64,000 nucleotides of DNA, taken from the NCBI GenBank assembly GCA_040954595.2, contig CM082598.2, forward strand, positions 682,001-746,000, read 5' to 3'. Shown piece after piece: positions 9,583 through 60,122 of this stretch (the first letter of the stretch is position 1; every line of letters starts with the position of its first letter). This DNA comes from Balanoglossus misakiensis. Its lineage: Eukaryota > Animalia > Hemichordata. Under the pieces are notes generated by a model. It saw only the letters and a list, made by a program, of their open reading frames with translations, searched no databases and was not told the DNA's origin. A program made the position numbers and the translations under genes.

Positions 9583-9699
9583 CGGTCGATTCGTCGTCGT
9601 AGACTATGCCGTGTATCTCACCGTGTGTAGATCGGTTTTGATAGTGACACGAAATCGACCGGTACAGCGTATTTTTGAGTGTTTATCTGTGCGTAACAA

Positions 9700-27300: not shown

Positions 27301-29356
27301 TAGAAGAGTGATGTCCAGGAAAGCTACTCTGTCATTAAGTGGATCCCAAGGGATTAAGTACCGATGCCAAATCTTGTTACGCTGTTCAATAACAATCCGC
27401 GTGACTTAAAACAGACCACACGTAAACACTTAGTGAGTAACACAACCAGTGTCCACCTTGTACTTAATGAAGAGGAAATGCCTTTTGAAGTTCTTTGAGG
27501 GTCGAAGAATTGAGAATGTTTGCAGTACGTGTTATGGTTTGAGAATGAAGTCAGCTCTTTTGTTGGTGTCACCAAAGAGGCGAAGGTTTTGCAGTAAGAC
27601 CTCCAAGCAGAAGAAATAATGTCACGTTTTCCTGACGTGCGGTTCAACTTTCAAGTGATACTTCCAAAGTAAAAATAAGATCGAACGTGCTTGTGTGATA
27701 CAATTTAAGAAACTTAATTTACAACGCCCATCTCTAGTGATCTGCAATTTGGCGTCTTACGACGTTCGTGTCATAAATATTTTGGTAGCTGCCATTCAAA
27801 AAAATTAATTGCTTCGTTGGCGGTGCAGTTGTTTAGTAAATGGTCTTTCAACGATGTTTTTTTATATGTTTGATAGATTAGCTGTTTTGCGCTTTTGGCG
27901 ACGTCTGTTCGTTTGTGTATGACGCATAACGATTTCTAGCAAAGAGTTGTCTTGTTTTGCCCCCGATCCGTTCGTGATTAAATCTAGTCTAGTACATATA
28001 GATCTAGGTTTCGGGGGAAATCAACGTCTAGAGCGAATCACCAATCGATCGTGGCAGACTCGTGGGAACAGCCGGTGCCAGACCAAACTCATCACTGTCC
28101 TTCTGCCAAGTCTGCCACGACTTGTTGACAAAGTCTGCGCGAACTAATTTTTCTGAATTCTGTGGCGGAGAGAACTAGCCTGTTTGCCAAAATTTACAGC
28201 CAATGCGAAAATGAGAATGTGGAAAGGTCGACAGGTTGCAATCAATCCCCTATGAAACGTCCCGGCCGTAAACTCGTAAGAAATCATCAAGGCACTTTCA
28301 TTGTGGTCTCACGGACAATCACCGCTATACCAGCAGTGACCAGCAGTGAAAATCATGAAACTCCGTCAACCAGCGATACAGTGGCCAAAATCCCTGAGTT
28401 GTCATAAATAACGATATATATATTTTTTCAACTTGGGTGAATGCAAAATATATATGTTTGTAATTTGCGCGTCTCGCTCGTAATAACTCATCACCGAAGA
28501 AAGAGTTTGAGGTACGGATGTAAACTAAAAGCGCGATAAATTTATGCAACTTGACAAGACGTTGCCACGTCCTGTCCGGTGCTGGACATACTAGATAAGT
28601 TATGAATTGATTGGGGGCATTTTAGATAAACATATCAACGAAGAATGCCGCCTTGTATATGGGCGACATATTGTTGAAAGTTTGTAGACTTGGCATTACG
28701 TTCAGGGACTGACCAGTTTCTCCAAACCCAATGCCGTTTCAGAAATTGGCCAAAGAACTTCAACTGGCCAATGAGGCTAAAATTGTAAATAGTTAAACAT
28801 GCCTAATGATAAGTTCATTACTGTGGATAGTAGTATGATAAAGGTTGTGATATGTATAATTTATACAATTGCTGGCTGCTATGATGTGAAATTTTCATCC
28901 ATGAAAATTAGGAGACACTACTTGGTCGGGTAAAAGTTGTTGGCCAAAATGACGCACCACGTCACATGCGATTGAGATCACATCGACCAATCACATAGCA
29001 CAGGGAATTGACGAGGTGTAGTTCAAAATAAATCTTTGGACGGATAAATTTGTACTTGGTCGCGAACATATTACACCATAATGTGCCTAAATCAAGGTCA
29101 ATCTTATGAGGTCAGTTACTGTATCATATCGTTCAGCAAAACATCTGTGAGACAAAGGATGTACTCGTCAATAAGCACACGAGAAGAAAGGATTCCCTCC
29201 TCATTGAAAACTACACAATTACTTACCACCGTGATTTCGCATCCCACCACCGCGGTTCTTATTGCCTTTGTTCATTTTCATTTTCTTTTTCTTGCCAGCG
29301 TCGACAAAAGTGGCAAGTACGACAAGAAAAACGAAAAGAAGTAAAGCCAGCCTCAT
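24387..29356 (-). CDS. PTN: Pleiotrophin/midkine-family secreted heparin-binding protein with extra modules, 295 aa. Exons 29356-29227, 26717-26541, 25769-25620, 25266-25123, 24822-24667, 24517-24387.
   Basis: Signal peptide MRLALLLFVFLVVLATFVDA, then Lys-rich tail. N-module DCAGWVWGDCEPTEGECGVGTKKATRDGADCKVISKTKRCRIPC follows the PTN six-Cys pattern. Four 4-Cys modules follow (CKY..., CRY..., CKY..., CFF...). All introns are phase 1 GT-AG. Confidence 0.88.
24860..25030. mobile_element. MITE with about 40-bp terminal inverted repeats, in a PTN-like intron
   Basis: Left TGAATCAACGTTCGACCACACACAACTTCCATCCC versus right GGGATGGAAGTTGTGTGTGGTGGAGCATTGATTCA; TA-rich ends. Confidence 0.75.
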
Positions 29357-34194: not shown

Positions 34195-37100
34195 TCAGTG
34201 CTTTGTTCCCTCTAATAATGATTCTAGCGTAAACATCTGAAACACAATTTTTTCGTACGGAAAATCTGTCGTCCCACATTCATAAAGGCATGCAAATCGC
34301 TGAACGAGACTGCCATTCTCAGCCTCTGTTTCGAAGTACGTCAGATCCGAGTACGCACTTGGTCCAGGACATAACGGCCATGGTGAACTCCAAGATTTGC
34401 AGTTATCCATACTCAGTCGTACTGAGAGATTTATCCTGGTTTCTTTATCTGCTGGGTTGGAGAAAATCGCCCATGTTTTGGGATGACCATTCGGAACACC
34501 ATCAGGAGCAGGAAAGCCAAGAATACTTCCCTGAAATAAAAAAAAAATAAATTCTTGACTGACCATATTCAGATAATAGCATGACATCGATTCCCACCAA
34601 GACTGTGATAGTCACATCATCTCAAAATGATCTGTTTGCTTCAGCTTTGGAGACAGACAATTTTGGGAGACCCACATTGCCTTGGGTAAATAGCTGTATG
34701 CTGTTGCCCTCATGCATGGCCAGTCAATATGTACTGGTATATACTGTTACATCAACCAAGTCAAATGTTGGACAGTGCACAACAAAAGTTATGAACCATG
34801 ATGAGTCCTTGGCAGTCTAAAAATTGTCACGATTTGAGGGAAATTAACCTAGTCTAGTATCTAGAAATGTGTTGTCCGCTTTTCTTCCAAAACTACGTTC
34901 GCGTTGGACAGTGCAAAGCAGACAACACACAGCTAGATACCAGACAACAACCTACCTGGCAACCACCAAAATTCTTCGTACTTGGCATCCATCCTCCTGT
35001 GTATCCCGGTTCCACCAACTCCTCAACTATCTTGGCTTGGGCAAATGATATACCTCCATCTTTGCTGTATGCTTGTACGCGAGGCGCATCGGGACCCAAT
35101 GATCTGCTGTTAATGCAGATGAAACCATTTTCCAATTCAACTGCCTGTGAATTAAAAAAATGCCATTTCAAGATGCTGAAACTACTGTCATATTGCAATA
35201 TGGTCTCCATTGTTTGTCAGCATCTTGTGTGGATTTCACAAGAACTGTCACCATGGTGATATAGTCAAACAGGAACAGTTACTATGAAAGATGCCCTCCA
35301 ATGCCAAAACATAGTAAAGGATAGAGCACAACAACAAAAATAAAATATAGCTGTGAACAGCAATAAGCGGGTTTCGAGACACTACTAGCCCTATTGGTTC
35401 GCCTGGAGATAGATTTGTGCATATTTAATTACTGCATTAGTTGTTCTATCACTCCAAATGCCAAGGGTGTATGTGCTGTGGATGCTGAGATGTGGAAAAG
35501 TAGGTCAAAGGTCACGTGAGGTCACGCTTAATATGAGTAGAAAATGTTTACGCTATACTGGTCCATGTCAAACAAAAACCAGACCTGTAGCCCTACTGGT
35601 TTGCCTGGAATTAGGTATGCACATAATTAATGAGTTAGGCAGGTGTCACAGGTGACTCTCAAATTTGGCTTCTTATTTTGGTCCCGTCCACCCAAACACC
35701 TAAGCTGTACCTGCTCTGGATGCTGAGGTATGCGAAAGTAGGTCAAAGGTCACCCAAGGTCACCCAAAATTTGGGGAAAAAATTTGACCCCATACTGGTC
35801 CATGTCCGACAAAAACCAGACCTGTAGCCCTATTGGTTTGCCTGGAATTAGGTATGCACATAGTTAATGAGTTGAGCAGGTGTCACAGGTGAGCCTTAAA
35901 TTTGGCTTCTTATTTTGGTCCCATCCACCCAAACACCTGAGCTGTACCTGCTCTGGATGCTGAGATACGCGAAAGTAGGTCAAAGGTCACCCAAGGTCAC
36001 CCAAAATTCGGGGAAAAAATTTGACCCCAAACTGGTCCATGTCCGACAAAAACCAGACCTGTAGCCCTATTGGTTTGCCTGGAATTAGGTATGCACATAA
36101 TTAATGAGTTGAGCAGGTGTCACAGGTGAGCCTTAAATTTGGCTTCTTATTTTGGTCCCATCCACCCAAACACCTGAGCTGTACCTGCTCTGGATGCTGA
36201 GATATGCGAAAGTAGGTCAAAGGTCACCCAAGGTCACCCAAAATTTGGGAAAAAAATTTGACCCCATACTGGTCCATGTCCGACAAAAACCAGACCTGTA
36301 GCCCTATTGGTTTGCCTGGAATTAGGTATGCACATAATTAATGAGTTGAGCAGGTGTCACAGGTGAGCCTTAAGTTTGGCTTCTTATTTTGGTCCTATGC
36401 TGCAGACTATTGCACCGACCAGAATTCTACAAAACTATGTGGCCATAGCTTAAGTATAGTGGAATAAGTATAGGTATAGATTTCATAAAAAAATTAATAT
36501 AAAAAAATCGGTCGATTTTCCATATTATTTTTTCCAGTTGGAACTGATTGTCGGAAGGTAGGCTAGCTGCACACAAAATTTGAAGCTGATCAGCCCAGCG
36601 GATGTTGAGATATTGGGCATAAATCTAAAATCCTAGGGGGGCCATTGCTTAACCATGGAAAGTATAGGCCAATGGCTGGGTCCAATGGTCATGGAAAATA
36701 TGAAAAATAATGCTTTAAAAATCATCTCCTCAAAATCGGCAAGGACTTAGACATTGAAATTTGGCATATAGGACCCTGGCCATATGGTCCACAAAGTTTC
36801 TGAACAGAATTTGGATTCTTCATTTTTTATGCAAATTAGACCAATTTAAAAGTTTAAATCCGAGATGGCTGCCAGGTCATGTGACCTGTTGCCATAGTGA
36901 CATGATCAAAAAATTACTTGCTTTGAGTTTTACCTATGAGCCAAATTTCAAGTCATTGGGTGCAACGGTCTTCGAATAGCGGCTGTTTTTAAAAGTGGGA
37001 AGAAGAATAATAATAATAATAATAATAATAAAAAACAACACGATTTCAAGAGGGTTTCGAGACCCCTCTGGTCTCGAAACCCTAACAAGGGATAGATAAA

Positions 37101-40100
37101 CATCAACACAAAAATACTGAACAGATTAGCAGAGGCCATGCATTATAATGCACAAATTATGTGAAATCCATGCTTGCATCATGCAATTATTAACAACATA
37201 GCAACATACATGACGTGTAATGACACCCTGGTCCTAATCGCAGTTTCTCCTCTGACTTTAATTGTTTGAACCTTCCCGATAATGCACAAACCACAGGCCA
37301 ACAACACCTTTTCCACACACAGTGGACATTATTTGTGAATTTATTTAAACTTTAAAGTTTTTACTATCAACAGGTGCATGTAAATTGAGCTGGACAAACT
37401 CACCCTGATGTACATGGATACAAGATGGATGAAATGTGATGTGCGTGAACACAGCTGGCATGATGGCTAACAAGTTTCCATGGCAATAGGTAAGTCATAT
37501 TTTCAACATTTCTTAATATCTCTCCATGCATGGATGAATGAATGAATGAATGAATGAATGAATGGATGAATGGATGGAAGCTGATTTAAGATACAGACTC
37601 ATCAACCTCAGAAGATTTTGAACGTAATGCTTTAACGTACACAGCTTCACCAATCACAAACACTGTTACAAAATAACCAAGCACTTGCAATACAGTTTCA
37701 CTTTCACAGAATTCCTACCTGACTTTCATTACAATAAACCACCCTTCTTCCTCTGTCCTCTGCATTGCAAATAGCGCCCCCAACCTGCCAAGACCTACCC
37801 CCGTCATCACTATAGATTATATTCGAATAATTTGTGCAGCCATGCAGAAAGTGGAAATGTGTCCAAAACCAGGCTTTAATTTCTCCCAGGATTCCTACGG
37901 ATTTATAAAATAACCAACGACATGCATTCAATATAAACATGCATTTTGAGTTCCTATTCTGAATGTCAGTGTTCCTTCTAAGACAATGATCTCAGGTATA
38001 ATGGGACTGGAAGACGCAAAAGCTACTTTCAACATTTGTACACTCAGAACCAGTCAAAATATCCAGGGATTTCCTTAAGTTCTTCCAGTGCTTTTCCAAG
38101 AGCTTTCAAGGGCACAAATACCATTTCCCAGAATTCATCATGTGGAGTTTACACTTGCGTAAATTATCATTTTTTAAGGACTTTCAAAGACCAGTATCAA
38201 TTACATTAACCTTTGATGGGGACGTGATAACAAGACCTCTCACAATAATCTTTACAATTGTTTTCAGGTTTCAAAGTGCAGTGAATTTGCAAGCAACACC
38301 TGGTCGTTATTCATCTAGTACTCCTTAAGGTAAGATCTTCATTGACGTACTTAATTTTTGTTAGCTCGAAGTTTATACAGGGAATTAAGAAGCTTAGAAA
38401 TTTAATACTAAGTGCAGTTTACCTCACTCTTAAGTGTTTGAACAAAAATTACTTGTAGGCTTTCAATCGGCCAATGTTTCCCATTTTAATAATACTGTTC
38501 AAAGTGGTTTCTCATGGCTATTAATTGTATAAAGTAATTATGACATTATAACCATGTTTGACAGCTGACACACTGTGTACACGATTCTGTAGGCCATACA
38601 TGTAAATTTAAACACTAAAACAGTAATAATCTACCAGAATAACAATAATGATGTCTTAGAAGGAACACAACATTTGAAGTGAATATTAACTCAAAGATAA
38701 GATGTGTGCTTTTAATCTCCAGATGGTAGTTTAATACCATCAAATAAAAACTGTGCTGTAAAAGAAAAAAAATGTAAAATCATCAATAAGTACTAAGATA
38801 TGATGATCACTGGGTACTGAGCTGTTGGTAATGCTGAAATAAGATCTGACTGTAGTGTTTTATCTAGGCTGTAGGATTGTGAAGTTTTCTGAATTTAAGA
38901 CTTGTTGGATGTAACTGATGTAGTTGATAATTATTTAAAAATATCATCACAGACCCTGTTCTGGAGACCTCTGTCTTGTGCACAAGTGTCGGACCCCACC
39001 ATAAAAGTCTGACATTTTAATGTGTTTCCGTGTGAAAGCCTAACAGCTCAACTTCTTATTTTACAAGAAAAGAAAATAATTTTAACCTAAAACAACACTG
39101 ACTTGATTACCATGAGATGAGACCGCAACAAACATTGTTGCTGAGTCCAAAATAACATTTTATCAAATTATTCACGAAATAAGGTGTCATATCTAAGAAA
39201 GCCCTTTGTAAACTACTTCAAGCAATTCAGAATAATCTTGTTCAAGCTCGCAGAGTTCTTAGAAAGTTTAACTGCTGATAAATGAACGGCCATATGGGTA
39301 AAACCTATAATGATAACAACAAACAGCCTATCACATGTAGATTAAGTCTTTTGGTGCGAGAGAACAACATAAAACAATTAACAGTCACAAAATGATTGAG
39401 TACTGGGGTTGTAGTTGGCACAAAAATTATGTCACAGACCATTACACAGGGATATTGGCAAGCCTTGAAAGCAATAATTCAGGAGTGGAATTGACAAGGG
39501 GAAAAAATAGATTGGGGAAGGGATATGGTGAGATGGCGAAAATTGGCCACTATCACTCCTGGGTATGGGAGAAAGCATGAGAAGTAAAGTGCCTTGGTCA
39601 CGGTCAAACATCGCGGCCATGTCCTGGGTCTCGAACCCACAATCCTCTGATAAAGTGAGCTGAATATCCTCGTCAGTCGACCTCAATGTCTCCCAACTTA
39701 TTATGACATAGTGAATGAATGCCGAAAGTCTATATGTTCAGAGCGTATGACTGTAGAAGCCCTAGAACTGGACCAACACTTGTGTCAATGCATAACGTAC
39801 ATGCTGTGAGGTCCAAACAGTGTATCACAGTGCAGATGGTATAACAGTCACCTGGCCATAGGGTTACATGCAAGCATGCATGAATGTATTAATATTATCA
39901 GCTAAACTTTAGAGTATACACACACCTATTCAGAACCAATAAATTAGGGGTTTCCTGGCAGTGAATGGTATGTATACAAGACATGCCAAGATATGTTGTA
40001 CTATGTTAGCATCATAAGGTTTTGCTGGTTTAACAGTCACATACCCATAGGGATGCAATGCATTAGATAAAGGATCAAACAGGGAGTGCCACTTAAGTTA

Positions 40101-43100
40101 CACCATGATGGATATTGAAGTATTACTGCATTCTTATCCCACTTAAAGGGTGATTGTGAATTCTTTAAAATCTTAAACTTAGCAACAGACTTTATTCTTG
40201 GGGGTTCATTTAAAAATATTAACTCAAATTTAATACACCGAAAGAGATTATAAATTTTTGTAAAAATAAGGATTTAGAGATATTTACTAAAAAAGTATTA
40301 ACCTAACTACAAGTTAAAGATGATTTTACAAAAAACTAACCTGAGCTTCATTAGAGTGAATTATTTTGCCTGTTTCTGTTGCCATGGCAGCAGGAACACT
40401 GCCCCCAACGTGCCAAGTAGCACCCCCATCATCACTATACAGTATATTGGATGTCATAACTGAACCATGTAAGGTGTCAAAAAATTCCATTACAGCTGTT
40501 TTAATGTGTGGCCAAATTCCTGCAACGAAACAGTACATGCATCAATCGCATTGCAGATAACCTTAATTGGTACAATTGTAACATCATCACATATAAAATT
40601 ATGAAAAATAAATGAGATATTATGCTCTCTCTGGGCCTAAAAGAAATTGGACAATTGGACAAAATTAAAAATGTCTGCATGTTTGATTGTTGAATGCATG
40701 AACTTCCAGTTAAAAATATGTGGTAATCAAATTTTAGTATACACCATATCATGGGGATATAATCAACTCATGACACAGTTTATAAAATAATATGTAATAC
40801 AGCTTTTAGTGTAAGCTCCTGGGTCACTTTAGTTTAAGTATGGCTATTGCAATCAACACTTATGTAAGTATTATATAAAATGCAATTTCCATAATGGACA
40901 TCAATAAAATGACTGGGGCATAACTTGTTATGATGTGGTCAGATGTAATCTAATTATGAGAAACCAAAAATACATATATTAGCTTCAGTGTCACAGATTT
41001 TATAGATGAAAAACATGAACTGGTCTCCACTCTGTATAATAAATTATGTGACTCACTGAGTCTTTGTGTAATGGAATAGGAATGTTTTCTCTGGAAATGA
41101 AAAGGTGTGTCGCACTAGAAATGAACAAAAAGTTATGTTGTTGGCATTCACAGTAAAATCTCAGGTCTCCAAAACTCCTTGAAGTAAAAGCCATGCATCA
41201 AGAAAGATAAAATCAACATGATTTGAATCTCTCCCATCAGTTCCATGTTGAAACTTCTAGTCTCTGGCTTGTCAACTTCAGTAACACTGTTAGAGGACAG
41301 TGTAATAAACAAGAATACACTGACTCCAAAAGAAGTTATACATTTGCAATAAAACAGCAATATTTGTACTTAAACCAGGGACAAATACGTAAATTCATTA
41401 CTAAAACGATAAGAGAATGATTACCTGGTTCTACAGGATCTTTGATGCAGTAGTTGCCCGGTACAATAAGACGACCGGAAGACAACTGAATACCATGGCC
41501 AGGACCTACAATAAAGCACATACAGTTAAAGGGACATAGTCTCTCTCTTGGATATATAGTGAATCAACGTTCGAGCACACACAACTTCCATCCCGCTTGT
41601 AGACACGAGAGTGAAAAACACGCCAAAATGAATGATCGGTCTCTACCGTTTATTCCTTTTTGGCAAGATATTTACTCTCATATTCTACAAACAGGATAGA
41701 AACTGGTAGGATACAAATACCGTACCTGGTGAATAGATAGCCCAAGGTTGATCTACACTCCCTAATGTCATCTCTGTGATGTTTGTCGGTTCACCCCAAG
41801 TGACTCCATTGTCTGTGCTTTTCATCACGTACAGAGTTTGATTGTAGACACCACTTTTCAGCAAGTCAGTTTCTGTCAGGTCTGGTGGGAATGTGTTGAA
41901 TACTAAGATGATGGTGTTGTTTAATTTGTCAACAATTGGCACAGGGTTCATAGTTCTGTAACGAAAAGTGAAACAGTCAATACTGAAAGACTTCTGGGTT
42001 GCAATATGGAAATACCAGATGGGATGATACCCATCCTTTTAAATATTCTAATGCAATGTACCATCAGCAACAATGATGAGTAAATGTGACATTTTTAATT
42101 GCCTTGGAGACAGCATCCCTCATGAAGTCATTCAGTTCAGAAATTATCCTGTGATGAGAATTTTTGTTTTGCAATTCTATATTTCCCAGATGAGCACCAT
42201 TATTATAAGTCATCTTCTGAATTAATGATGTTTTCATAATTTATGGTGAATTTTTATTTTCAAATTTAAGCGTTAGGGAATCTTAAATGAAAACATGTCA
42301 CATTCAGTTGTTGGATCCGCCTTTCTTCTTGACCACATGTACTTTGCACAAACACACTTGCCTTTTGTTTTCAATGCTGGCTATGACTTGAATATCTCCC
42401 CACTCAACTCCCTTGTCTCCAAGGACTCCTCGTCTCAGAACTAATTCCATTTCTCCCCAGTCACGGAAGGAGTTCTTCCGGGCTTCACAAAATGCCAGGA
42501 ATACTCCTTTGTTGTAAACCAATGCCGGAATTCTGGAAATGAAACAGAAAAATGTGTCATCAAATGAGCGATTCCTAGCAGTCAAACAGAAATGGCATTT
42601 TATATAAATATTATATGAATACAATTTCTAGTGAGAGACATAATTCAACTAGGGACACATATGTCTCTGAAAATATTAATATGAAACATTAATTGATTTC
42701 TTGAGATAACACACACCCAAAAGACTCGTAAAATAATTGCATTCCAGAAATCATTAATCTATGATGAGTTTATATCTGTCACTTTGTCGTGTATGTTTTA
42801 GTAATCAAACTGACTTATACAGCTTTCAATAATAAATAGTTTGAAATTCTAGTGATTTTATGAAACCAAGATGTGAACACCATGTTTTCTTCTTTGATTT
42901 CAAAAACACACCTTGGTTTGGAGGACTCTGTCCATGCGGTGCAAACTACCTTAAGACTGATCTTTCGTTAGAGTGTTAACACTAAGGGAACAGCTGAATA
43001 AACGGACAGTGGCTGACAAATATGATTAATAAGAGTAACAGTGAAGTTCAATAGGTATAACATATCTCATGGGGAAATGAAAATTCAAGTTAAATATGAC

Positions 43101-46100
43101 AGATTAGCAGAGACATCAACAGCTGATGGGAAATATGTAAAATTGACACTAATGGCAACTGTGTCCATGGCAACATGAATGAACCATCTAACATGAGCAG
43201 ATTGTATAATTGAATTGAGCAGTCGCCCATCATGCATTCATTGTAATCTAGTTACTTCCGACTTTTAATTTCATCAGAATGAGTGTATGACTTCCCCCTA
43301 GGATCATGACATCAATTTTCCAATGGAACAGACACAAAGAATATTGTGCAATTTCTCCGACGTACCACGTGGAATCGCAATTAAATTTCTAGTGTTACGA
43401 ATTGATAAAACCGAAGTGGGTAATCATCAATTTTATTTCTACCACTGTCATTTGAAATTGCATGCTAGTTTTAAAAGCTATGTACAGGGATAATGTTTAA
43501 ACTCCAAAATCTGCTGATTTATCCCCTATGCAATTGCTGCTGACCGCCAAATTTTCCTTTGACAGCAAGACTGCATTGATGTATATGTACTCATATTGTA
43601 GTGATAACATGAACAATAATTAAACATCTTTTTGTCCAAGCAACCTTGTAGAAACACTCCTTTTAGTGGATTAAGTAATCTGCGTAAAAAATGCCATAAG
43701 ACTACTATTAAATGAATAAAACATCACCATGGTAATCAACTCTGTCATAAAATAACTATTGTCAACTCAAAGTGGTTTTAGTGATGAATGACTCACAATA
43801 CTTTCTCTAAAAGTTTCTCAACCTGATACGCAATTGATGGTGTTGCTATGGTGACTCATGCGTAATCAAGCTAGTCCTTCATTAATGGAATTGTACGCTG
43901 AAAATTTATGCATTGAAGCAAATGTTTTAAGAGATTATATAGGAATTTCTCACCATGTATTCAATAAATGGTTCTTTTTATATACGGGACAAAGTGACTA
44001 TCTTTCAGACATTCATGTTTCAAGTACTGGGTAGTTTTTTTATCAAGTTATAATGTCTCCAAGCCCACTTAGCTTGCACTTGTTTCAATGCTACCGCAAT
44101 TTGGTCACAAAAGGAACAGTTGGTAGTTGTAAATATAAATGATAAATGGGAGAGAGTTTTATTTAGGCTATTGGGTAATCAAAATGCAAAACGACAATCA
44201 GAAAGTTATTCTCAAGGTTTCCTGTCCTGGAAACCAATTACTGAAATGTACCTGACATAATTGTCAGGATGTCTGGATTCATTACAATCATTCAGAAGTT
44301 CAATGCATATTTTAGCTCCTATTTGCCATATATGTTTAATATTTCATATTGAGTCCTGCCTGCTTATGTTGCGTTAGAGTCTAACAGACTATATTGATAA
44401 GCATATCAATTATATAGCAAAACTTTGACCTACCTGAAGGTTTCATAGCCATGGTCTCCTTGCCCAAATATTTCTGTAAAAACAAGATCAACAAATAGAA
44501 TTTATTCAGTACGAATCATATTTGGAAGAAACAAATTCTATCCATTACAAAATGACCACAGACTTAATTATGGTCATTAGAAAAGGATTAATGTGATCGT
44601 CATATGTGTTTCCTGTCACACGGGTATCAACCATCCCAAAGGGATGACTTGTACTTTTTGATGGATTTGATGAAAATGATATTCTAAACTTTAAGAATTT
44701 GCAGCTGTGACACATCAAAAGACATCAGTTAAATATATTCCTGAAAGAGAAAAGACCATGTTAAACTTGTAAATTTCAATCTTTTGGGTGAGCGCTTTCA
44801 TTTAATAATCTGCCATTTCACTTAGATTCCTCGCTTTTAACAAAATCTGATTAAAAACATGATAGCGCTTTTAAAGTCTGAGATTGTGAGCTTATAAAAT
44901 GTAAAAAATGGTATTTCAGATAAGGAAAGCATTCTGTCTTTTGTCTGAACATAACACGGTCTGAACTGTGATAGGAAGCGGCTTAACATATGGTACCTTT
45001 GTGAACTCAGTATGAGTGAATAAAAATCTGATGCAAAACTATGAAGACATTCTAGAGCCATATGGTTGGGGCTTTGACCTCTGCAAAAATCCATAAACCT
45101 CTTTATTTACTGTCACAAAAAGAGATTCCATGTTTCGAAAACTATGACTCTAGCCTACATGTATACTTTTTAACAGTTAAAGTATGCAAATCTGATCAAA
45201 AGTAAAAGTTACCATGGCAATAGAAATTCACTGACCCTGCTATTATGAGTCCCCCCATGGCAACAGCTTGTAACTATTTTTAGTAGCTAGTATTTGCAGA
45301 CAATGTGATTTCACTCTTAATTACACACCAGACATTTTAATCCCAAATCTTTTGCGATACACTTAATTGTGTGATAACCTCTATGAATGGACCACTCCAT
45401 ATGACATTGTTATTGATGACTATGTCTATATGACCTCTGACCCAGTTGAACAGACTTCTCCCATATGGTATTGCAATTGACATCTTTCATTTATGATATC
45501 ATAATCATACATTGTCAGTTTCCAGCATCAAACACTGCACTGTACAAATAAGCCATTGAAAAACAAAGCCAAAAGATATAGCTAATGTCCCTTTAAACCA
45601 AAGTGTTTCATGAACTGCCTTAGAGAAGCAATATGGTATATCATCACTCCACCTACTTTAAACATTTATCGAATTTATACCGGCCTTTGGGAAATTCAAA
45701 GCCATTAATTATTTCATCATCTAAATTAGGTCAGAAGGGACAGGCAGATAACATTGCTTAGGTTCCATTAGGCATGCTTAAATGTGGTGGTTTTTTTTGC
45801 TTTAGCTGCTGAACTTAACTCAAAGTAAAAATTCCACAGTTTGTGATGTGTATCTTTTCACTCATCCATGGAAAAGGGCGAATAACCAATTTCCGTTCAA
45901 AAAAAACAAGGAAATAGTGGAACTTCTTTGATTTCTTTTCAAAATGACAACTTTGAAAACAGGAAAGAATAGAACGTGCACAATTATTCATTTCTCACCA
46001 AACCTGACCACGATGTGAATTCGAAAACAGTTCTCACATATGTTTTTGTTAATAATGATGTGACTAAATGTTCCTAAGCATGAATACATGCCACGATAAT

Positions 46101-49100: not shown

Positions 49101-51189
49101 TCTAGAGAGATAAAACTGAGGCCACATGGTTGAAACCTTATGTTTCTACTGTCCAATGGAAGTCATATTTTTGCTGTGAATAACATTCAGATAAATTATA
49201 TTGCGATTAAACCATGATACTAAAACTGTAGCTAAATTGACCGGATACCTTTAAATTGGCAATCCTCGTAAAACTGTGTAATATTCTCAAAAGCTAGGTT
49301 ACACTGCATAAAACGTTTAAATTTATCGTGGAGACACTATAGCTTTTAAGTTTTATATTTAAACAATTTCAAATCTAGAAGATTGGAAGGTTTGTAAACC
49401 CTCCATAACAAGTTGATAGTTATCAAAGTATACTATCGATGACGGAACAAGTTCCAGACTAAAATTCAAACTGCAGAGTTTTAGAGACTTGTAAAGTACT
49501 GCCATATTTTTTTATTCCGCGGCATTTGATAGCTCTCGTGGTAGGATTAAATGCAGTGTATTCACTTACAAATGATCTTAAAGTCTACAAACATTTATCA
49601 ACCTCAGTCAAAGGTGGATATGTATGATCGCCTTCACAACATTTAATTGAATTCGGGTGACTGCAGAAAAAGCCATAGGGAAATATGCAGAGAGTATATA
49701 TCATATAAACACCAAAAAAAAAACCCTCCCAACTCTAGTTACAATCTCTCGTTAAATGTGCAGTTTGATAAATTGGAACTCGAAATCCCAGTTTCAAGGA
49801 CATCAGAGCAATCATCAACTTTCCCTGCCAACAAGAACAACCACCCTTCACCAAATCTCCTTCCCAGAGTACCCAAGTACTGGAAAATTGACATGTCAGG
49901 ATATTGGATTACCCGAACCCAAATGCCTACTTCTCTACTAATCTCCAAGGTATTAGACGTTGACAGGTGTATTAAGATGGCCTCAGTACCTTGGAAGTTG
50001 CCTAACCTCTTTAACCTTAACACCATCACTCCAATTCAAAGAGCCCTAGAAGCCAATAAAGCAGGCCACTGACACACCTATATTCTCTTGCTTTCAAGGA
50101 AATTATTAATTTTTCATCTGTAATGACTGTTGATCTCACTCATAGATGAGTTTAGCTAATTCCTAAACTGATTTGGGGGAGGGGGGGGGGGGGGGAAGAA
50201 GAAATGTATTAGCGTTTTAGAAGGCATACTTCACTTTTTATATCATTTACCACTTGACACCTCTTGTCATATAAATGAAAGACTTCAAGTCAAGGGGAAG
50301 TCGTTCACTTATTTTTGGCAAAAGCTACTGGCACTATGGCTTAAATAAAATAAGAAAATGCAAGATTAAAACTGTTTTCGATTCTTGAATTAACAAATAA
50401 AAAATAAAAATTTATTTATTTATATCTTTGGTACTTCTTTCCAATTCAGCATATGATTGTTTGATGCAGAGTCTGACTCAAAAAAACCTTTTAAGGTCTG
50501 TTTTGTTGTTCAATTCATTGAACTCTCCAGAAATGTCCTTCTGAATAAGGAAGCAGGTGTTGGAAGGGAAACGCATATTCTCGATAAATCTATAAATTTA
50601 AAAAAAAATGCTGACTGCAAGGACTGTGTGATATGACTGTGTGTGCATAAATTTATGATCTATGTGCAGCTTACTAGTATATAGTCACGACGTGGCTATA
50701 AATTCACCCGAATTAAGTTGTTGAAATTAATGCCAAAATATGCAGTACAAATGTATTTGCATCATTCATTCAGCCCAAAACGTTTGTATGTTTCATGCGG
50801 ATGATGTCACAAGCGCGCTGACAGTTTTCACAATCGCTGTCCATTTCAAAGTTTGATATATACAAAGAAACAGGTGATTAGACTAGTTTCCGTTTATTTC
50901 ACACGCGACATTGTAATAATTGAACGATTCATGCGCGCTTGTACTTTTCAATGGGCTGGCCAACGAGCGCGATCCATTTCAAAGTTTCCACCAAAACACC
51001 GGCAGCTGATCTGAGTGAGAGAGTCGCGGCGATCGACTAGTTATGCAACCGCTGATTAACACCAAGTGCAGCCGACAACACAACGGCCCAATGAGTGAAC
51101 AGAGTCTATACCGTTATATTTAAATTCTCACCTGTCAAAGGGAATTCCTTGAGACCACCAGTGAAGGTCGCCGAAGCAGCAGCTGACAT
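34195..51189 (-). CDS. NEU3: Sialidase (GH33, NEU2/3/4 type), 426-427 aa, no signal peptide. Exons 51189-51132, 44473-44434, 42532-42362, 41955-41726, 41505-41425, [40519-40341 or 37894-37719], 35144-34956, 34530-34195.
   Basis: FRIP motif split by an intron, FCEAR..D, MNP, Asp-boxes STDNGVTW, SDDGG.W, SKDGG.SF, SMDNCKSW, GPGHGIQL, NE.Q, AYSDL, LYE. Phases are consistent. Exon 1 is the least certain, and the NEU3 label is at family level. Confidence 0.9.
34851..34945. repeat. Short palindromic element, copy 1
   Basis: AGTCTAGTATCTAG...TGTCCGCT...AAAGCAGACAA...CTAGATACCAGAC; same family as 47798-47875. Confidence 0.65.
35343..37088 (-). mobile_element. Non-autonomous Helentron/HINE (DINE-1-like) element in a sialidase intron
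   Basis: One end has the palindrome AGGGTTTCGAGACC-cctct-GGTCTCGAAACCCT (about 37051-37083) next to an (AAT)n microsatellite. The other end repeats GGGTTTCGAGAC (35369-35380) next to a short GCTGT-ga-ACAGC hairpin and an A-rich boundary. Internal tandem repeats. Confidence 0.75.
35385..36396. repeat. Tandem array of 237-bp units, about 4 copies, inside the Helentron-like element
   Basis: CCTGTAGCCCTA recurs at 35584, 35821, 36058 and 36295. The first unit is more diverged. Confidence 0.92.
37719..37894 (-). CDS. Sialidase alternative exon 6b (176 nt, phase 1-0)
   Basis: CCGTAG| ... CAG|GTAGG. Encodes GILGEIKAWFWTHFHFLHGCTNYSNIIYSDDGGRSWQVGGAICNAEDRGRRVVYCNESQ. Confidence 0.85.
39560..39700 (-). 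mobile_element. tRNA-derived SINE-like repeat; related copy at about 58160-58280
   Basis: Pol III B-box GGTTCGAGACC on - strand (39627-39637). Core ATGAGAAGTAAAGTGCCTTG is shared with 58168-58187. Boundaries are approximate. Confidence 0.55.
40341..40519 (-). CDS. Sialidase alternative exon 6a (179 nt, phase 1-0)
   Basis: TTGCAG| ... CAG|GTTAGT. Encodes GIWPHIKTAVMEFFDTLHGSVMTSNILYSDDGGATWHVGGSVPAAMATETGKIIHSNEAQ. Confidence 0.85.
41553..41683. mobile_element. Truncated second copy of the same MITE, in sialidase intron 4
   Basis: About 125 bp aligns to 24860-24980 (GTGAATCAACGTTCGA.CACACACAACTTCCATCCC.CTTGTAGACACGAGAGTG). The right TIR is missing. Confidence 0.75.
47798..47875. repeat. Short palindromic element, copy 2
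   Basis: Perfect 14-bp TIR AGTCTAGTATCTAG / CTAGATACTAGACT plus inner TTTGTCCGCT / AGCGGACAAA. Confidence 0.7.
48424..48880. mobile_element. Possible degenerate non-autonomous DNA transposon with TTAA ends
   Basis: Bounded by TTAAGG (48424) and CCTTAA (48880). The terminal similarity is short and there is no second copy in the window. Confidence 0.3.
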
Positions 51190-53881: not shown

Positions 53882-56800
53882 ATGTCTGACATTGCTGGTA
53901 TAATTCAAACAAGAGACTGTTTTACCAAGATGAAGATCTTTCATCATTATCGATCTAAAAGAATAACACTTTTGACAAGTGCGATACTTTTCGTCATACT
54001 TACAAAGCAATATTGGTTTTCAAAAAATACTCCAGATCATTTCAATACAGACTATAATATTCAAGGTCCTCTTGGACCAAAAGTTGTGATCAAGAAACAT
54101 CTAGAGAAACGGGGACCAGGACCATTCCAATTTCAGTCTGGCAAAAAGATTGGAGGATTGGAGAATGAAATGGTCTATCAGTTACCAATACCCTGGAATA
54201 ACAAGAATGTATTCGCTTCAGAAACAGTTGGTAAGTTTTCACGTCTGTTTCCATGGTAATTGATTATGTTCAGTATAAAGCAACAGACCGATAGTGGCAT
54301 TAACATCATCTTAAAAGAAATAAAAATAGATTCTATGTATGTATACGTGGCAATGCCAAGACTTGAAGCTGGTAGTGTCAGTTTTAATGTGACTTACTGA
54401 CCTTCACAGTTTTCCGCATGTAACTCCAAAATCGGCTCTTAAACTTAGGCTATATTCTCCCTAAGAATTCCGATAATTCAACCCATAAAATTTCATCACT
54501 GCCTTGGTTCAAGATACATTACAACCCAACAGAGCTGCGATGTACTTAAGTGTCGCTCAGTAAGATCACAAAATAAAGTGGTGCTGGGGATACTTACTGA
54601 CCTCATTGAACCATTCGTAGAAATCTGATATTTTCTTTGAATTTGCTATTATTGCATGACAAAAAGTCCCACAACCATGGTGATAAATCTTATCCCATGC
54701 CCTTTTTGGAGTTTGAGATTCTAGTAGTCTTATTTGTAACTTGAGGACAAAAAGGAAACTGTATACTGGTGCTAAGACCATAATTCCTGGTGCTGACATG
54801 GACATTACCACTGATAATAAACACTTGCTGTTGTCATTTTATTTTATTACAGATGTTTTCAGTGGCACAGAACAGGGATACCGCGTTGCAAGGTCAGTTG
54901 GATTTCATCTTCACTCAACTGCATCCTAAAAACCATCAGTTGCTGATCAGTCAAACTTGTTTTCTGTGGTAAAGTTGGACCTCTAGAAGGAACTGGGGGT
55001 GAAAGGGTTAAAATCCCACGATCAGCCGACAATAGCTCAGTAACACACAGTCAGAGTCTGGTCACTACACCCATTTTACTGTCTATAGAAAACTTTGTCT
55101 ATAGAATGCTTTTTGTGACATGTGTAGAGTGCTTGAGTGACATCTTCACAATCAGAAAAAATTGTCCTTGCAGTCTTCAATGGGGTATGTCCCTTTAACC
55201 TTCTTATGACCTTATCTGACCTCATTCCCTAGACATAACAGTTTATGAGGACATATAATTGGCATCTTCGTTTGGAGAGAAAATGGGTCAGGGACATGGG
55301 CCATCTGTATAAGCAAAGAATATAATAAAAATGTTCGAGAAGGATAGTGGAAATGCATGTGTATATTTACACAAAAGTTCCACCATAAAGTCATTCTCGC
55401 CAGCAGTAATCACTCACACATTTCAACAAAAACTCCTTCCCTGCCTACTGAGTTTAAGCAAGAAATATATATTCATAATTATAACTTTTCAAATTTACAT
55501 ACGGTTGATTTGTCTGATGATAAATTTGGGGGGGTCAGCCCTCACCCCCAAAACTAGAGGAATGAAGTTTTTGAACTTATGATACTGCCGCCCGTTTGCA
55601 AGTGTCATTATTATATCTTTTAAAATATGTTTCCATTATCCATTGCAGAATACCAGGAATGATTTTCCATGATGGTAAATTTCTGATATTTTGTGAAGCC
55701 CGATCAACTGCACATGACTATGGAAATATGACAATTATTTCCAAGAAAGGAACGCTCTTACCTGACAACTCAGTATCTTGGGAAGCAAGCAAAGTTGTAG
55801 TGCAGATACCCCGAAAAAGGTGAGAAATATTCACAAACCATCTCATCACCACAATGGTTCAGTCCAAACTATTTGTTTCCTATGGTAAAGTGGGAACTGG
55901 GGTGAAAGGATTTACCCTTTCACCCCCAGTTCCCTCTATATAGAGGTCTAACATTATAGAAAACAATGGGTTTGGACTGAACCATTCTCGTGAAAGGGTT
56001 AAAGGACTACAATCACTACTACATATCCCCACATGATTAAAAGCTCTCATGTCATAAAATGTTTTAAAGTTTGCTACTGTGTGATCACTTTATCCCACTT
56101 TATTTACCATAGTAAATAAAGAGAAACTTTTGCATTGGTGGCATCTAAAACAGTGAATTAACACACCTAGCTAAAATAATGTGCTTGATAAATAAGCATG
56201 TTTTACAGAAGTTTATACACAGAAACATAATCTTGTGTCTTTAAAACTTTATTTTTCAATCAGAGTGATGAATCCCACAGTTGTCTACGACAAACTACGG
56301 AATAATGTCGTTCTAGTTTTCCTGGCAATTGAACGACACTTATCAGAACGGGAAATGGTGAGAAATGGTCGACATCAGGTCAGAGTGTGTGTGGTCAAGG
56401 TAAGTACGAGAAGAATCTTTGAGAAAACCTCTCTTTGTAAAGAGCACCATCTAGTGGTATATATATCAGTCAAAACATAGTTACCAATTATATTAATTTG
56501 AACAAATGTTTCTTTTTATTTTGCAGAGCAGCAATTTTGGAAATACTTGGACAGACATTCATGATGCCACAGATTCTACTATCAATAAAGTCCAAAACCC
56601 ACATGTGTCTGCCTATGCACCAGGTAACAAACAATTTCATCTGTGATCAACGTGTTTCACACTTCAGTTCTTTGTCCCAAAGAGTACAATTTATCCAAAA
56701 TGAACATTGTAAACTACAATGTTGGTTTAAATCTAAAATCTTTGAAACTAGAACTTTTACAATTATCTCCATGACTCGAACACTTCATGTAACCTTGTTC

Positions 56801-58776
56801 TTGCTTTCTGAAATGACTCGACTCTAGAAGGCGTAATCATCAATGATGACTTGAACTTTCAGGTCCAGGACATGGCATACAGTTAAAATCCGGAAGATTG
56901 CTTATTCCGGGAAATCTGTATCAGAAAGATTGGAGTGGTCTTGGTAAGTTGTGCACTTAGATTTCATCATTTATATTTGACTCAAGTATCATTTGATGGA
57001 TATTTGAGATTCGTAATCTACAACTATATTAGTCCCTTTGATGTTCAGTTTACATCCAAATATACCAGCTACAGTAGATTCTCCCAGCAGCTATCCGATA
57101 GTTTTCCACCAAAGATATTATAAGAACTGTTCTGGACCGTAAATTCAGCATTGATCGATTATCAATTGTGTCTTCCAGTTGGACCAAAACAATTCTTCAA
57201 CAACAGTGATTACAGTAATGTGATATACAGCGATGATGGGGGTGACACTTGGAACATGGGTGGGATCTTACCCAGATCTAGAGATGATAAAGGAAGAAAA
57301 ATATTTGCCAATGAAGCTCAGGTAAGTTCAGAAAAGTTGAAGCAGGATTAGAAACAGATCTACCTTCGGGTGAGGTCTGGTTGAGATTATCTCTTTACCT
57401 TCCATCCATCCATCATCCATAGAATAATATATCCAATAGAGTTTCTATTGAAGTATCTATAATTTCTGCTGCTGTCTGTAGATCTATATGTAGTTTTGGC
57501 CCTATTTTCTATTGAATTCTATAGAAACATGAAATCTATACAATGCTATAGAACATTTTTCGTAAGGGAACCTTTATTCATCCATCCATCCATCCATCCA
57601 TTCAACATTCATTCATTCATTCGTTCATTCATTCATTCAATTTGACTCTTTCAGGTTGCTGAACTTGACAACGGAGTGGTTGTCATGGCAATGCGTACCC
57701 TGGATCACCACCAGTCTAGAGCACAGGCTTTCAGTTACGACGGAGGATTGTCATTCAGTCGAGCACAAGTTGTTCACAATCTTGTAGAACCTGGCTACAA
57801 AATACATCACAATGTTCTGGTACCAAGGGTGTCACCAGGTTGCCAGGTGAGTTTCTATCATCCAGGGGCCCACTCCCCTGCTAGAATAGAATATTCCATC
57901 ATACATAGGCCCTTTCCAGAATAAAGTATCGCACATAGACGACTGTAGTGTTCTGTGGAAAAGAGCTTTGGAAGAAATCACATCATAGCAGTACAGTCAA
58001 ATTCACTTGGCTGAGCATGTGTATTGGAATACACACATTTCTATGACTGTTTTGTGTATGTTTATTGAGTGACTACATCAATAGCAAACATAGAAAGTAT
58101 GTCTACCTAGGAAAGGATGACTTGAACAGGTACGAATCACCTATACAAAGCCAGTCCCAAAGAGCAATGAGAAGTAAAGTGCCTTGCTCGAGGGCAAATG
58201 TCGTGGCCATGAAGTAACCATCCCTCAGATAGAAAATACACAGCCATGTCTGGGTCTGGGAATGGCACCCACAACTCTTGTGAGTCCGATTGACCACTAG
58301 GCCATGATGTGTGTTTTGTTTGTATCATAAGAGTGGCCCGCTCCAGATCATAGACTATATTTTGTATGGTCAGTGATCTTGTACATTCAATCTTTGAAGT
58401 ATGTGTTGTTCATCCCAATTTCTTCCTCCAACAGGCCAGCATCATCACATTCCCTGCACCAAAAGGAGCCCCTGGTAACCAAACTTGGGCACTATTTTCC
58501 AACCCGGCCAGTGAAACGTTACGGAAATCCATGTCTATCCGGTTAAGTTACGATGGATGTAAAACATGGAGTAATCCATGGACCATTTATCCCTGGTATT
58601 CCGGTTATTCCGACATGAGTTATCTCGGTGATGGAGAATCTGGACAAAAGTTTGCTATTATTCATGAAGGTGGGCATAACTCAGAAATAGATAGTGTTAT
58701 GATGAAAATTTTTACTTTAGATGCTTTGCTGAAAGGACTGACGGAAAAGAGGCATGTGTTCAATAGTAACAGATAA
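53882..58776 (+). CDS. Second sialidase (GH33), about 516 aa, with N-terminal signal-anchor-like segment and stem. Exons 53882-54230, 54853-54892, 55649-55819, 56264-56399, 56527-56623, 56863-56943, 57179-57321, 57655-57846, 58435-58776.
   Basis: ARIP, FCEAR..D, MNP, GPGHGIQL, Asp-boxes SSNFGNTW, SDDGGDTW, SYDGGLSF, SYDGCKTW, NEAQ, GYSDM. The 40-, 171- and 81-nt exons equal those of the - strand paralog. The start could be Met 53882 or 53930. Confidence 0.9.
55845..56002. repeat. Two inverted copies of a short interspersed element; further copies at about 54925-55011 and 16720-16810
   Basis: AATGGTTCAGTCCAAAC...GGGAACTGGGGTGAAAGG followed by CCTTTCACCCCCAGTTCCC...GTTTGGACTGAACCATT. The copies end in GGTGA.AGGGTTA. 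Confidence 0.7.
57578..57639. repeat. (CATC)n/(CATT)n microsatellite just before a splice acceptor
   Basis: Seen directly. A similar (GAAT/GGAT)n tract lies at 37531-37578. Confidence 0.9.
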
Positions 58777-60122
58777 AGTATGTGTTTTTCTTCAATTAAT
58801 CTCCACTTTGCAACTCAAAGTAGCATCTCAGATCAGGTAATATTTTGTCTGATCATTCACTGATAATCAGACTTCCTTTAATAAAAACGTCACCTAATTT
58901 AGCCGCAGTTATTCTAGAAAGCGGAAATCTAACAAATCTTAGATTTTCTCTGGTTGACCATTAGGCTTAGACATAAACAGATGATTGTAATACTTTAAAA
59001 CCTTTGACTGTACCTGAAATAATTATCCAAAACCATTCCGTGAATTCTAATTGTGCAATATTTTGTACGCATCAGATAAATATTGAGTATTGCTCATCTA
59101 CGTGGGAGTTTGGTTCGGAATGACCATTCTCAGTGAAAACAGATAATTATATACCAGTGTTCATCTTATTACATCGGATCCCTGTATTTTCATCATTGAA
59201 AGACAAGAACTATTCCATCAATAGTGCCTGTATTACCACAGAGAGTCGACCCACACCTTTTTTTTTTATAAATCTCTCCTTTATTCAAACTAAAATGTTT
59301 AATCCATGATATTTTTCCATTGGTGTATGGGTATCTATGCAAATGTTGCCATTTACCAGTGAAAGTGGAGATCGAGGCAATCACAGATTTTCACTTGGCC
59401 GTCCATGTGAAAAAAGTGCATGTATATAAACAACTCATTGTGAGAACTCACGAGACTTGGTTAATTACTGTAGCAATGGGCTGCTAACAAAGATATACAA
59501 AGCTTTGTATGAAACTAGAATAGGTACAGAGTTTATGTGTTAAACAAAAATTAAAAGTTTTGTGCTGTTCAACGATAGTCTTTCAATAAATTTAACTTTG
59601 ACTGTGGTTTTGAGGCTTGATTTGTGACCCTTGTTTTACAAATTTTAAAATTAAGTTCCAGAAATTTGCAGCTCAAATACCATCCATGTGTAGTGTGACC
59701 ATTTTTGCAATTATATTTTGATTCACGGGGGATTCTTTATTTGGCCAGTGCCCAGAAACATTTCTTCACTTGTTTGTTATTTATTTTTATTTTTTGTTTG
59801 TAATTTATTTTTGTTCTTATTTAGTTCAATTCATTGTGTTTCGCATAGTTTGTTTTATTTTACCCCCATCCTTGGTTTCTGTTCTGTAAATGTTTTATTT
59901 TTATCATTTTCCTTTTCTTTGAATAAATTCTAGTTTAACATGATGGTCACAACTGCACGTTGCCATGGTTTCTTTTTTATAGTAAATATAGAGTCACTGT
60001 CACTATCAACCCCCTCCCCAGGTGTATATACATGTTATTGTCACCATGACAACTGTTTCCTAGGCAGCAAACATAGTTTACTTCATTGAAATAGGGACAA
60101 TCATTTGCTTTTGAATGGTCTG

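What the first reader, a model, noticed from the sequence alone, without database searches (positions are those of the whole stretch)
37719..40519. Tandemly duplicated, mutually exclusive exon in a sialidase that swaps a hydrophobic loop, an Asp-box and the catalytic-Glu segment
Seen: two homologous exons (179 and 176 nt) lie 2.4 kb apart. Both are open and have intact AG/GT sites. They keep the core LHG....SNI.YSDDGG..W.VGG...NE.Q but diverge elsewhere. Both are phase 1-0, so including both, or skipping both, frameshifts the protein. No other exon of this gene is duplicated, and the neighbouring paralog has one copy. Established: the Glu in NE.Q corresponds to the active-site Glu of NEU2-type sialidases. 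The loop just before this Asp-box is the hydrophobic loop (WFFCF-containing in human NEU3) proposed to mediate membrane association. Inference: splicing switches between isoforms with different amphipathic loops (WPHIKTAVMEFFDTL versus aromatic-rich LGEIKAWFWTHFHFL), and so different membrane targeting or substrate range. I know of no mutually exclusive exon in animal sialidases.
Basis: partly seen in the sequence, partly recalled or inferred. Interest (0 to 1): 0.88.

Follow-up and report, generated by a model that had tools for sequence, protein, structure and literature searches.

The report
Swappable active-site exon in acorn-worm sialidase
An acorn-worm gene for a sialic-acid-removing enzyme carries two conserved copies of one exon, only one of which can be used at a time, and the same exon appears duplicated, likely independently, in amphioxus and sea stars, which suggests these animals likely use splicing to make enzyme versions with different substrate preferences.

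Summary
Exons A (40519-40341) and B (37894-37719) are intact homologous alternatives in an 8-exon NEU5-type sialidase. Using both, or neither, gives a premature stop. Ptychodera flava RefSeq isoforms X1/X2 differ only by these exons, each 78% identical to its window counterpart, while A versus B is 44%. This rules out an assembly chimera and argues against decay.

The same segment is swapped in 11 of 21 isoform sets compared, including amphioxus, sea stars and a brittle star. A single origin of all second exons is rejected (p-AU 5e-9). The residue before the catalytic Glu (NEU2 L217 position) is Asn in 26 of 26 single-form genes but Ser or Ala in one exon of 8 of 9 pairs; the window's own B is the exception. 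The exon carries a predicted helix in loop 4 on the catalytic face.

Substrate tuning is the likeliest role. Membrane targeting is possible, but the NEU3 precedent was not established in the papers I read. No RNA data were available for this species. New variant of a known kind.

The parts
51132..51189 (-). coding exon 1 (ATG at 51189)
   Evidence: 18 of 19 aa identical to P. flava P0037; GT donor
44434..44473 (-). coding exon 2 (40 nt), ends in the Arg codon of the F-R-I-P motif (R33)
42362..42532 (-). coding exon 3 (E49, R51, acid/base D57); GC donor
   Evidence: 93% to P. flava; residues checked
41726..41955 (-). coding exon 4 (E118, Asp-box at residue 136)
41425..41505 (-). coding exon 5, constitutive, donor in phase 1
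40341..40519 (-). alternative exon A (179 nt, phase 1-0): predicted helix 195-207 in loop 4, Asp-box at 222, N250 and catalytic E251; the form shared with Saccoglossus, Glandiceps and echinoderm orthologs
   Evidence: 78% to P. flava X1, 73% Saccoglossus, 71% Glandiceps; model of the P. flava ortholog
37719..37894 (-). alternative exon B (176 nt, phase 1-0): aromatic-rich predicted helix, Asp-box, N249 and catalytic E250
   Evidence: 78% to P. flava X2, 44% to exon A; model of the P. flava ortholog
34956..35144 (-). coding exon 7, constitutive, acceptor in phase 0 (R267, long loop 6)
   Evidence: 75% to P. flava
34195..34530 (-). last coding exon with stop (R348, nucleophile Y376)
   Evidence: 91% to P. 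flava
37137..41197 (-). cluster of 10 sense-strand UGCAUG elements (recalled as the RBFOX site), including one 22 nt above acceptor A and two 32 and 49 nt above acceptor B; candidate splicing regulators
   Evidence: 10 observed against 1.4-1.8 expected; at most 4 in 362 overlapping control windows; no other acceptor of either gene has one within 100 nt
37955..38680 (-). perfect 17-bp inverted repeat (arms 37969-37985 and 38652-38668) whose extended stem overlaps the only YURAY branch-point match within 100 nt above exon B; a lead only
   Evidence: 3 of 9 other window tiles hold inverted repeats as long
53930..58780 (+). neighbouring head-to-head NEU5-type paralog (500 aa, hydrophobic N-terminal stretch) with a single copy of the homologous exon at 57179-57321
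   Evidence: 70% to P. flava P0068

Best explanation
The gene carries two intact, conserved copies of one active-site exon that cannot be read in frame together, so it likely makes two alternative sialidases by mutually exclusive splicing, and these likely differ in which sialylated substrates they accept. Shown: the anatomy, the frameshifts, the conservation of both exons with Ptychodera flava, and the same swap in annotated amphioxus and echinoderm isoforms. Predicted from models and alignment: the exon supplies a helix inserted in loop 4 beside the glycerol-binding pocket, an Asp-box, and the strand carrying the NEU2 L217/E218 equivalents, while the other five catalytic residues stay constant. 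Inferred: exon choice is regulated, plausibly by RBFOX-type proteins at the UGCAUG cluster, with nonsense-mediated decay removing double-inclusion and skipping products. Inferred: swapping the exon reshapes the pocket rim (aglycone or lipid contact, and side-chain-modified sialic acids). In this hemichordate the main difference between forms is the more aromatic helix of B, which would favour lipid-linked substrates.
For: P. flava X1 and X2 share a 194-residue prefix and 175-residue suffix and differ only in this exon. A:A and B:B are 78% identical, within the 75-95% range of the constitutive exons, while A:B is 40-47%. Both P. flava isoforms model as full propellers (pLDDT 92.1 and 93.2); the B form matches human NEU2 best (TM 0.77). 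The catalytic sextet is present in both window isoforms. In PMC3431349 (section 13), loop 4 lies near the glycerol part of DANA and L217 is an inhibitor-contacting residue. PMC4164519 (passage citing unpublished work) lists NEU3 V224, which is next to E225, in a hydrophobic aglycone site. The same segment is swapped in 11 of 21 isoform sets. One origin for all second exons is rejected (p-AU 5e-9), as is amphioxus-2 plus echinoderm-2 (0.003). The residue before the Glu is Asn in 26 of 26 single-form rows and Ser or Ala in one exon of 8 of 9 pairs. UGCAUG is enriched around the exons.
Against: No splice junction was seen for this species (one search listed no run; a blank, not evidence). The window's own exon B keeps Asn before the Glu, so the recurrent substitution does not apply to it, and Asn-to-Ser needs only one base change. 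The 'second exon' labels were assigned after I saw the sequences. B is known from only two species: Saccoglossus and Glandiceps are annotated with A only, and a search of cluster representatives found no further B-type sequence. The exon trees rest on 47-58 columns, and hemichordate B plus amphioxus 2 as one clade is not rejected (p-AU 0.058). dN/dS between A and B is about 0.55 on 35 synonymous sites, which is uninformative. Relatives were seen as proteins only, so their gene structures are inferred. No enzyme data exist.
Confidence: 0.6

Rival explanations
1. The splice switch mainly changes membrane binding or subcellular location through the amphipathic helix, with little change in catalysis.
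For: Both exons begin with a predicted 13-residue helix. Over the same 32-residue loop, B has 7 aromatic residues against 4 and a more favourable interfacial score (-1.9 against +3.9; scale values typed from recall). The N-terminal part of the B helix is identical in the window and P. flava. Amphioxus isoforms include or omit a separate 25-residue basic and aromatic segment at this position. The protein has no N-terminal hydrophobic anchor, unlike the neighbouring paralog.
Against: The echinoderm pairs swap the same segment without such a helix, in a clade that includes proteins with an N-terminal hydrophobic stretch. Amphioxus swaps the Asp-box/Glu segment independently of the loop. NEU3's membrane anchor is unresolved in PMC5482835 and PMC13770669 (passages). 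The helix is amphipathic in both forms.
Confidence: 0.25
2. Exon B gives an enzyme with changed chemistry (pH optimum, turnover, or a near-inactive sialic-acid binder) rather than a changed substrate range.
For: The exon carries the Glu of the Tyr/Glu nucleophile pair and its neighbour; these positions affect binding in a pH-dependent way in NEU2 docking (PMC5669518 passages). The neighbour is changed in 8 of 9 pairs.
Against: All six catalytic residues are kept in both window forms, and the window's B keeps the Asn.
Confidence: 0.09
3. Exon B is a rarely used or decaying duplicate with no function.
For: Only A is annotated in Saccoglossus, Glandiceps and the echinoderm orthologs looked up. 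No RNA evidence for this species.
Against: B is as conserved with P. flava as A is (78% each), keeps frame, splice sites and catalytic Glu, and is in a RefSeq isoform.
Confidence: 0.05
4. The region is an assembly chimera or the remnant of a second gene.
For: NEU5 paralogs are clustered, and one lies head-to-head in the window.
Against: An independent genome (P. flava) has both exons in one gene, and no other exon is duplicated.
Confidence: 0.01

Closest known systems
NEU5 sialidases of invertebrate deuterostomes (Giacopuzzi et al. 2012, PMC3431349)
   Same: Multi-exon gene, long loop 6, full catalytic sextet, and grouping with hemichordate, echinoderm and amphioxus sialidases apart from vertebrate NEU3/4.
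   Different: The paper's main text has no occurrence of 'splic' or 'isoform'. No NEU5 alternative exon is described there; its supplements were not read.
Ptychodera flava sialidase-2-like isoforms X1/X2 (XP_070542504.1, XP_070542512.1)
   Same: Direct orthologs, 85% identical overall, with the same A/B exchange.
   Different: Automatic annotation only. P. flava B has Ser before the catalytic Glu, where the window's B has Asn.
coq-2 exons 6a/6e (Tan et al. 2020, PMC7434440)
   Same: Homologous mutually exclusive exons that remodel an enzyme core; an ancestral-type and a derived exon; recurring residue changes near the substrate; found in several phyla (abstract and passages).
   Different: Different enzyme and fold. 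The substrate switch is shown by experiment for coq-2 and only inferred here.
Tandem duplicated exon substitutions in general (PMC9741552; PMC5740500)
   Same: Same class of event; exon length not divisible by three; convergent origin in several lineages is documented for other gene families (passages).
   Different: 'Sialidase' does not occur in the main text of PMC9741552. Vertebrate NEU2-4 have only 2-3 coding exons (PMC3431349).
Human NEU2 and NEU3
   Same: NEU2 is the best solved structure by sequence and fold; Asn-Glu aligns with L217-E218.
   Different: About 31% identity; NEU2 lacks the loop-4 helix. Vertebrate rows have Val (12 of 14) before the Glu.

Membership tests
NEU2-type (GH33) exo-sialidase | Arg triad, acid/base Asp, Tyr/Glu nucleophile pair | tested here: met
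   R33, D57, E251, R267, R348, Y376 in both isoforms (B numbering minus one after the exon); aligned to NEU2
NEU2-type (GH33) exo-sialidase | Beta-propeller fold with Asp-boxes | tested here: met
   Models of the P. flava orthologs; NEU2 is the top fold match for the B form; Asp-box patterns at 136, 222, 280, 356; Pfam BNR_2
NEU2-type (GH33) exo-sialidase | Sialidase activity | not testable with these tools
   Needs an enzyme assay
NEU5 subgroup | Separate clade of invertebrate deuterostome sialidases beside vertebrate NEU2/3/4 | tested here: met
   41 invertebrate rows split from 4 vertebrate rows, SH-aLRT 100. No NEU1 or lamprey rows were included. My label of P0049 as B. floridae NEU5 is inferred from a truncated record name.
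NEU5 subgroup | Long loop 6 | tested here: met
   15 residues against 3 in two shark NEU4; the pattern matched 34 of 45 rows
NEU5 subgroup | Exon structure unlike NEU1-4 | tested here: met
   8 coding exons per isoform against 6, 2, 2 and 3 (PMC3431349)
NEU5 subgroup | Subgroup-specific residues E92, L223, E245, F294, C355 | tested here: inconclusive
   The numbering did not map onto P0049 (0 of 5 matched), so the reference numbering is unknown
NEU5 subgroup | Similar BLAST scores to mammalian NEU3 and NEU4 | not tested
   Mammalian NEU3 and NEU4 were not fetched
Mutually exclusive homologous exons | Neighbouring exons with sequence similarity, similar length and the same frame | tested here: met
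   44% identity, 179 and 176 nt, both phase 1-0
Mutually exclusive homologous exons | Junction reads bridging each exon, and no productive joined form | tested here: inconclusive
   No RNA run was listed for this species. The joined form is out of frame. Indirect support from P. flava RefSeq X1/X2; that such variants rest on transcript alignments is my recall, not a call.

The most novel reading that the evidence does not exclude
Invertebrate deuterostomes have duplicated the same catalytic-Glu exon of NEU5 sialidases three or four separate times (acorn worms, amphioxus, sea and brittle stars), each time replacing the otherwise invariant Asn beside the catalytic Glu in one copy. This would be a convergent splice switch that retunes the glycerol-side-chain pocket, for example to handle modified sialic acids or glycolipids, and it points to one residue and one loop as natural specificity determinants of animal sialidases.
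Probability: 0.35. Interest if true: 0.75.

Novelty: new variant of a known kind. Interest (0 to 1): 0.55.

Why it matters
What sets substrate preference and membrane association in animal sialidases is still open; a 2026 review calls NEU3's topology unresolved (PMC13770669, passages). These isoform pairs are natural controlled experiments: the same enzyme with only loop 4 and the strand beside the catalytic Glu exchanged, repeated in several lineages. Amphioxus even splices the hydrophobic loop and the catalytic segment separately. Assaying the pairs would test pocket against membrane roles directly. It also adds a glycosidase to the gene families with likely convergent exon duplication. The class of event is well known and the isoforms are already in RefSeq, so the interest is moderate.

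Tried and rejected
No whole genome is held. No RNA holder was listed for 34400-42600; this is a blank, so no reads could be laid.

A word-based protein search with exon A alone found nothing. A search of cluster representatives with exon B gave 37 hits, mostly multi-repeat Asp-box proteins plus P0003 and P0070, and no new B-type exon; clustering at 50% can hide isoforms. A metagenome scan with exon B gave 34 loci with short, mostly Asp-box matches; not pursued. Earlier scan notes: nothing in three look-ups.

Competing RNA structure: one perfect 17-bp stem (0 of 100 shuffles reach it) overlaps B's predicted branch point. But 3 of 9 other window tiles have inverted repeats as long, and none of four scans found a competing partner better than shuffled sequence, so a docking-selector mechanism is unsupported. 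Steric exclusion is unlikely with a 2446-nt intron. dN/dS between A and B was uninformative.

A single ancestral origin of all second exons was rejected. The age of the A/B split could not be fixed: the best tree puts Saccoglossus A with window A (88/90), but a later origin is not rejected (p-AU 0.08-0.11). The NEU5 signature residues could not be mapped. The fold search was obtained for the B model only.

Literature searches that found no description of this exon pair. The library lacks most subscription papers, and I read no supplements; those of PMC3431349 hold gene models that might show the exon.
Full report
Observation. Both exons lie on the minus strand at the stated coordinates, are 179 and 176 nt long, have AG/GT ends and are open in the same frame. 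Using the P. flava ortholog as a guide, the gene runs from ATG 51189 to stop 34195 in 8 coding exons per isoform. Joining exons by coordinate gives 427 aa with A and 426 aa with B. Including both stops at residue 278 and skipping both stops at residue 195, 287 and 181 nt above the last junction; by the usual rule (recalled) both would be targets of nonsense-mediated decay. No other exon is duplicated, and the head-to-head paralog on the + strand has one copy.

Both exons are conserved. A search with the last exon found hemichordate proteins first: P. flava 91%, Saccoglossus 81%, Glandiceps 77%. The P. flava cluster holds two RefSeq isoforms of 427 and 426 aa that differ only in this exon. Window A matches P. 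flava X1 at 78% and window B matches X2 at 78%, against 75-95% for the seven constitutive exons and 40-47% between A and B. Saccoglossus and Glandiceps are annotated with A only (73% and 71%); I could not see their genomes. The best exon tree groups Saccoglossus A with window A (88/90), which would date the duplication before the 373 Ma split given in PMC4729200 (passages), but a later origin is not rejected. No RNA run was listed for the window's species, so its splicing is inferred.

What the exon encodes. The protein is a NEU5-type sialidase by tree, exon number and long loop 6 (PMC3431349 sections 12, 13, 21 and 23 read in full), with all six catalytic residues in both forms. AlphaFold models of the two P. 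flava isoforms are confident and have the same secondary structure, with a helix at 195-207. The B model matches human NEU2 best. By alignment the helix is an insertion in NEU2 loop 4, and the Asn-Glu pair matches L217-E218. PMC3431349 places loop 4 near the glycerol part of the inhibitor and lists L217 among inhibitor contacts. B's loop has 7 aromatic residues against 4 in A. I could not inspect model coordinates, so whether the helix faces a membrane or packs on the propeller is unknown.

The same exon is swapped elsewhere. I looked up 25 protein clusters, not all deuterostome clusters found, and compared 21 isoform sets. Eleven swap this segment: P. flava, three Branchiostoma species and two hybrids, Patiria, two Asterias species, and two Amphiura genes. 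One Glandiceps paralog swaps a different internal segment, and nine differ only at the ends or by small indels. These are protein comparisons; the underlying exons are inferred. Amphioxus also includes or omits a 25-residue hydrophobic segment just upstream, independently of the swap. The echinoderm genes with the swap lie in a different paralog clade from the window's gene (25 rows, SH-aLRT 100).

Origins. On a 47-column exon tree of 44 rows, one origin for all second exons is rejected (p-AU 5e-9), as are amphioxus-2 with echinoderm-2 (0.003) and hemichordate B with echinoderm-2 (0.008). Hemichordate B with amphioxus-2 is borderline (0.058), although the free trees join the two amphioxus exons. 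Three or four origins are therefore likely and at least two are supported. The row labelled Bbel_1 came from a hybrid; the A. amurensis pair and the other hybrid pairs were left out of these trees.

A recurring substitution. The residue before the catalytic Glu is Asn in 26 of 26 single-form rows and in one exon of every pair. It is Ser (7) or Ala (1) in the other exon of 8 of 9 pairs. The exception is the window's own B. The nine pairs are not independent (about four lineages), I labelled the second exons after seeing them, and Asn-to-Ser is a single base change. It is still the one feature shared across lineages, whereas the hydrophobic helix is not. This is why I rank pocket and substrate tuning above pure membrane targeting, as in coq-2 (PMC7434440, abstract and passages).

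Regulation. UGCAUG occurs 10 times on the sense strand between the flanking exons, against 1.4-1.8 expected. It ranks 4th of 4096 hexamers, and no control window of the same size has more than 4. Acceptors A and B are the only ones of 17 in the two genes with a copy within 100 nt upstream. The antisense count is also somewhat raised (5), and the identity of this motif as the RBFOX site is recalled. A 17-bp stem over B's predicted branch point is a weak lead, since equally long repeats occur in 3 of 9 other tiles and no competing partner was found.

Novelty. Four literature searches found no description of this exon pair. The founding NEU5 paper's main text does not mention splicing, nor does a 2024 sialidase review (PMC11416241, passages). 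The library is incomplete and no supplements were read. Mutually exclusive homologous exons, and their convergent origin, are a known class (PMC9741552 and PMC5740500, passages), and the isoforms are in RefSeq. PMC4164519 and PMC5669518 were seen as passages only. Verdict: real (about 0.93 for mutually exclusive splicing), a new variant of a known kind, function inferred; interest 0.55.

Noticed in passing
window 8995-9603 (-): Open frame of 203 codons with a cyclin-dependent kinase inhibitor domain (Pfam CDI, E 1e-17); a Cip/Kip-type gene.
   Followed up: partly
window 42362 (-): The third coding exon of the sialidase ends at a GC donor (GC-AG intron).
   Followed up: no
window 35386-36395: Tandem array of a 237-bp unit, about 4 copies at 90-94% identity, in the intron below exon B.
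   Followed up: no
window 52261-52355 (+): A short ATG-started open segment ending at a GT donor lies upstream of the paralog's main start at 53930; possibly an alternative first exon (read).
   Followed up: no
window 57108-57179 (+): The frame of the paralog's single homologous exon stays open for about 20 codons upstream of its acceptor; a longer alternative acceptor is possible.
   Followed up: no
proteins P0188/P0057 (Glandiceps talaboti, 414 aa): Two isoforms of another NEU5 paralog swap a different 37-residue internal segment that includes loop 3, a second site of apparent exon duplication in this family.
   Followed up: partly
proteins P0180/P0169 and relatives (Branchiostoma): An optional 25-residue basic and aromatic segment in loop 4 is spliced independently of the swapped exon, giving four isoforms; a natural test of a membrane role.
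   Followed up: partly
proteins P0055, P0193 (sea urchins): The urchin orthologs of the sea-star gene are annotated with one form that resembles the second exon but keeps Asn before the catalytic Glu.
   Followed up: partly
window 29225-29355 (-): An ATG-started segment encoding a hydrophobic leader followed by a lysine-rich stretch, ending at a GT donor; looks like the first exon of a secreted protein (read).
   Followed up: no
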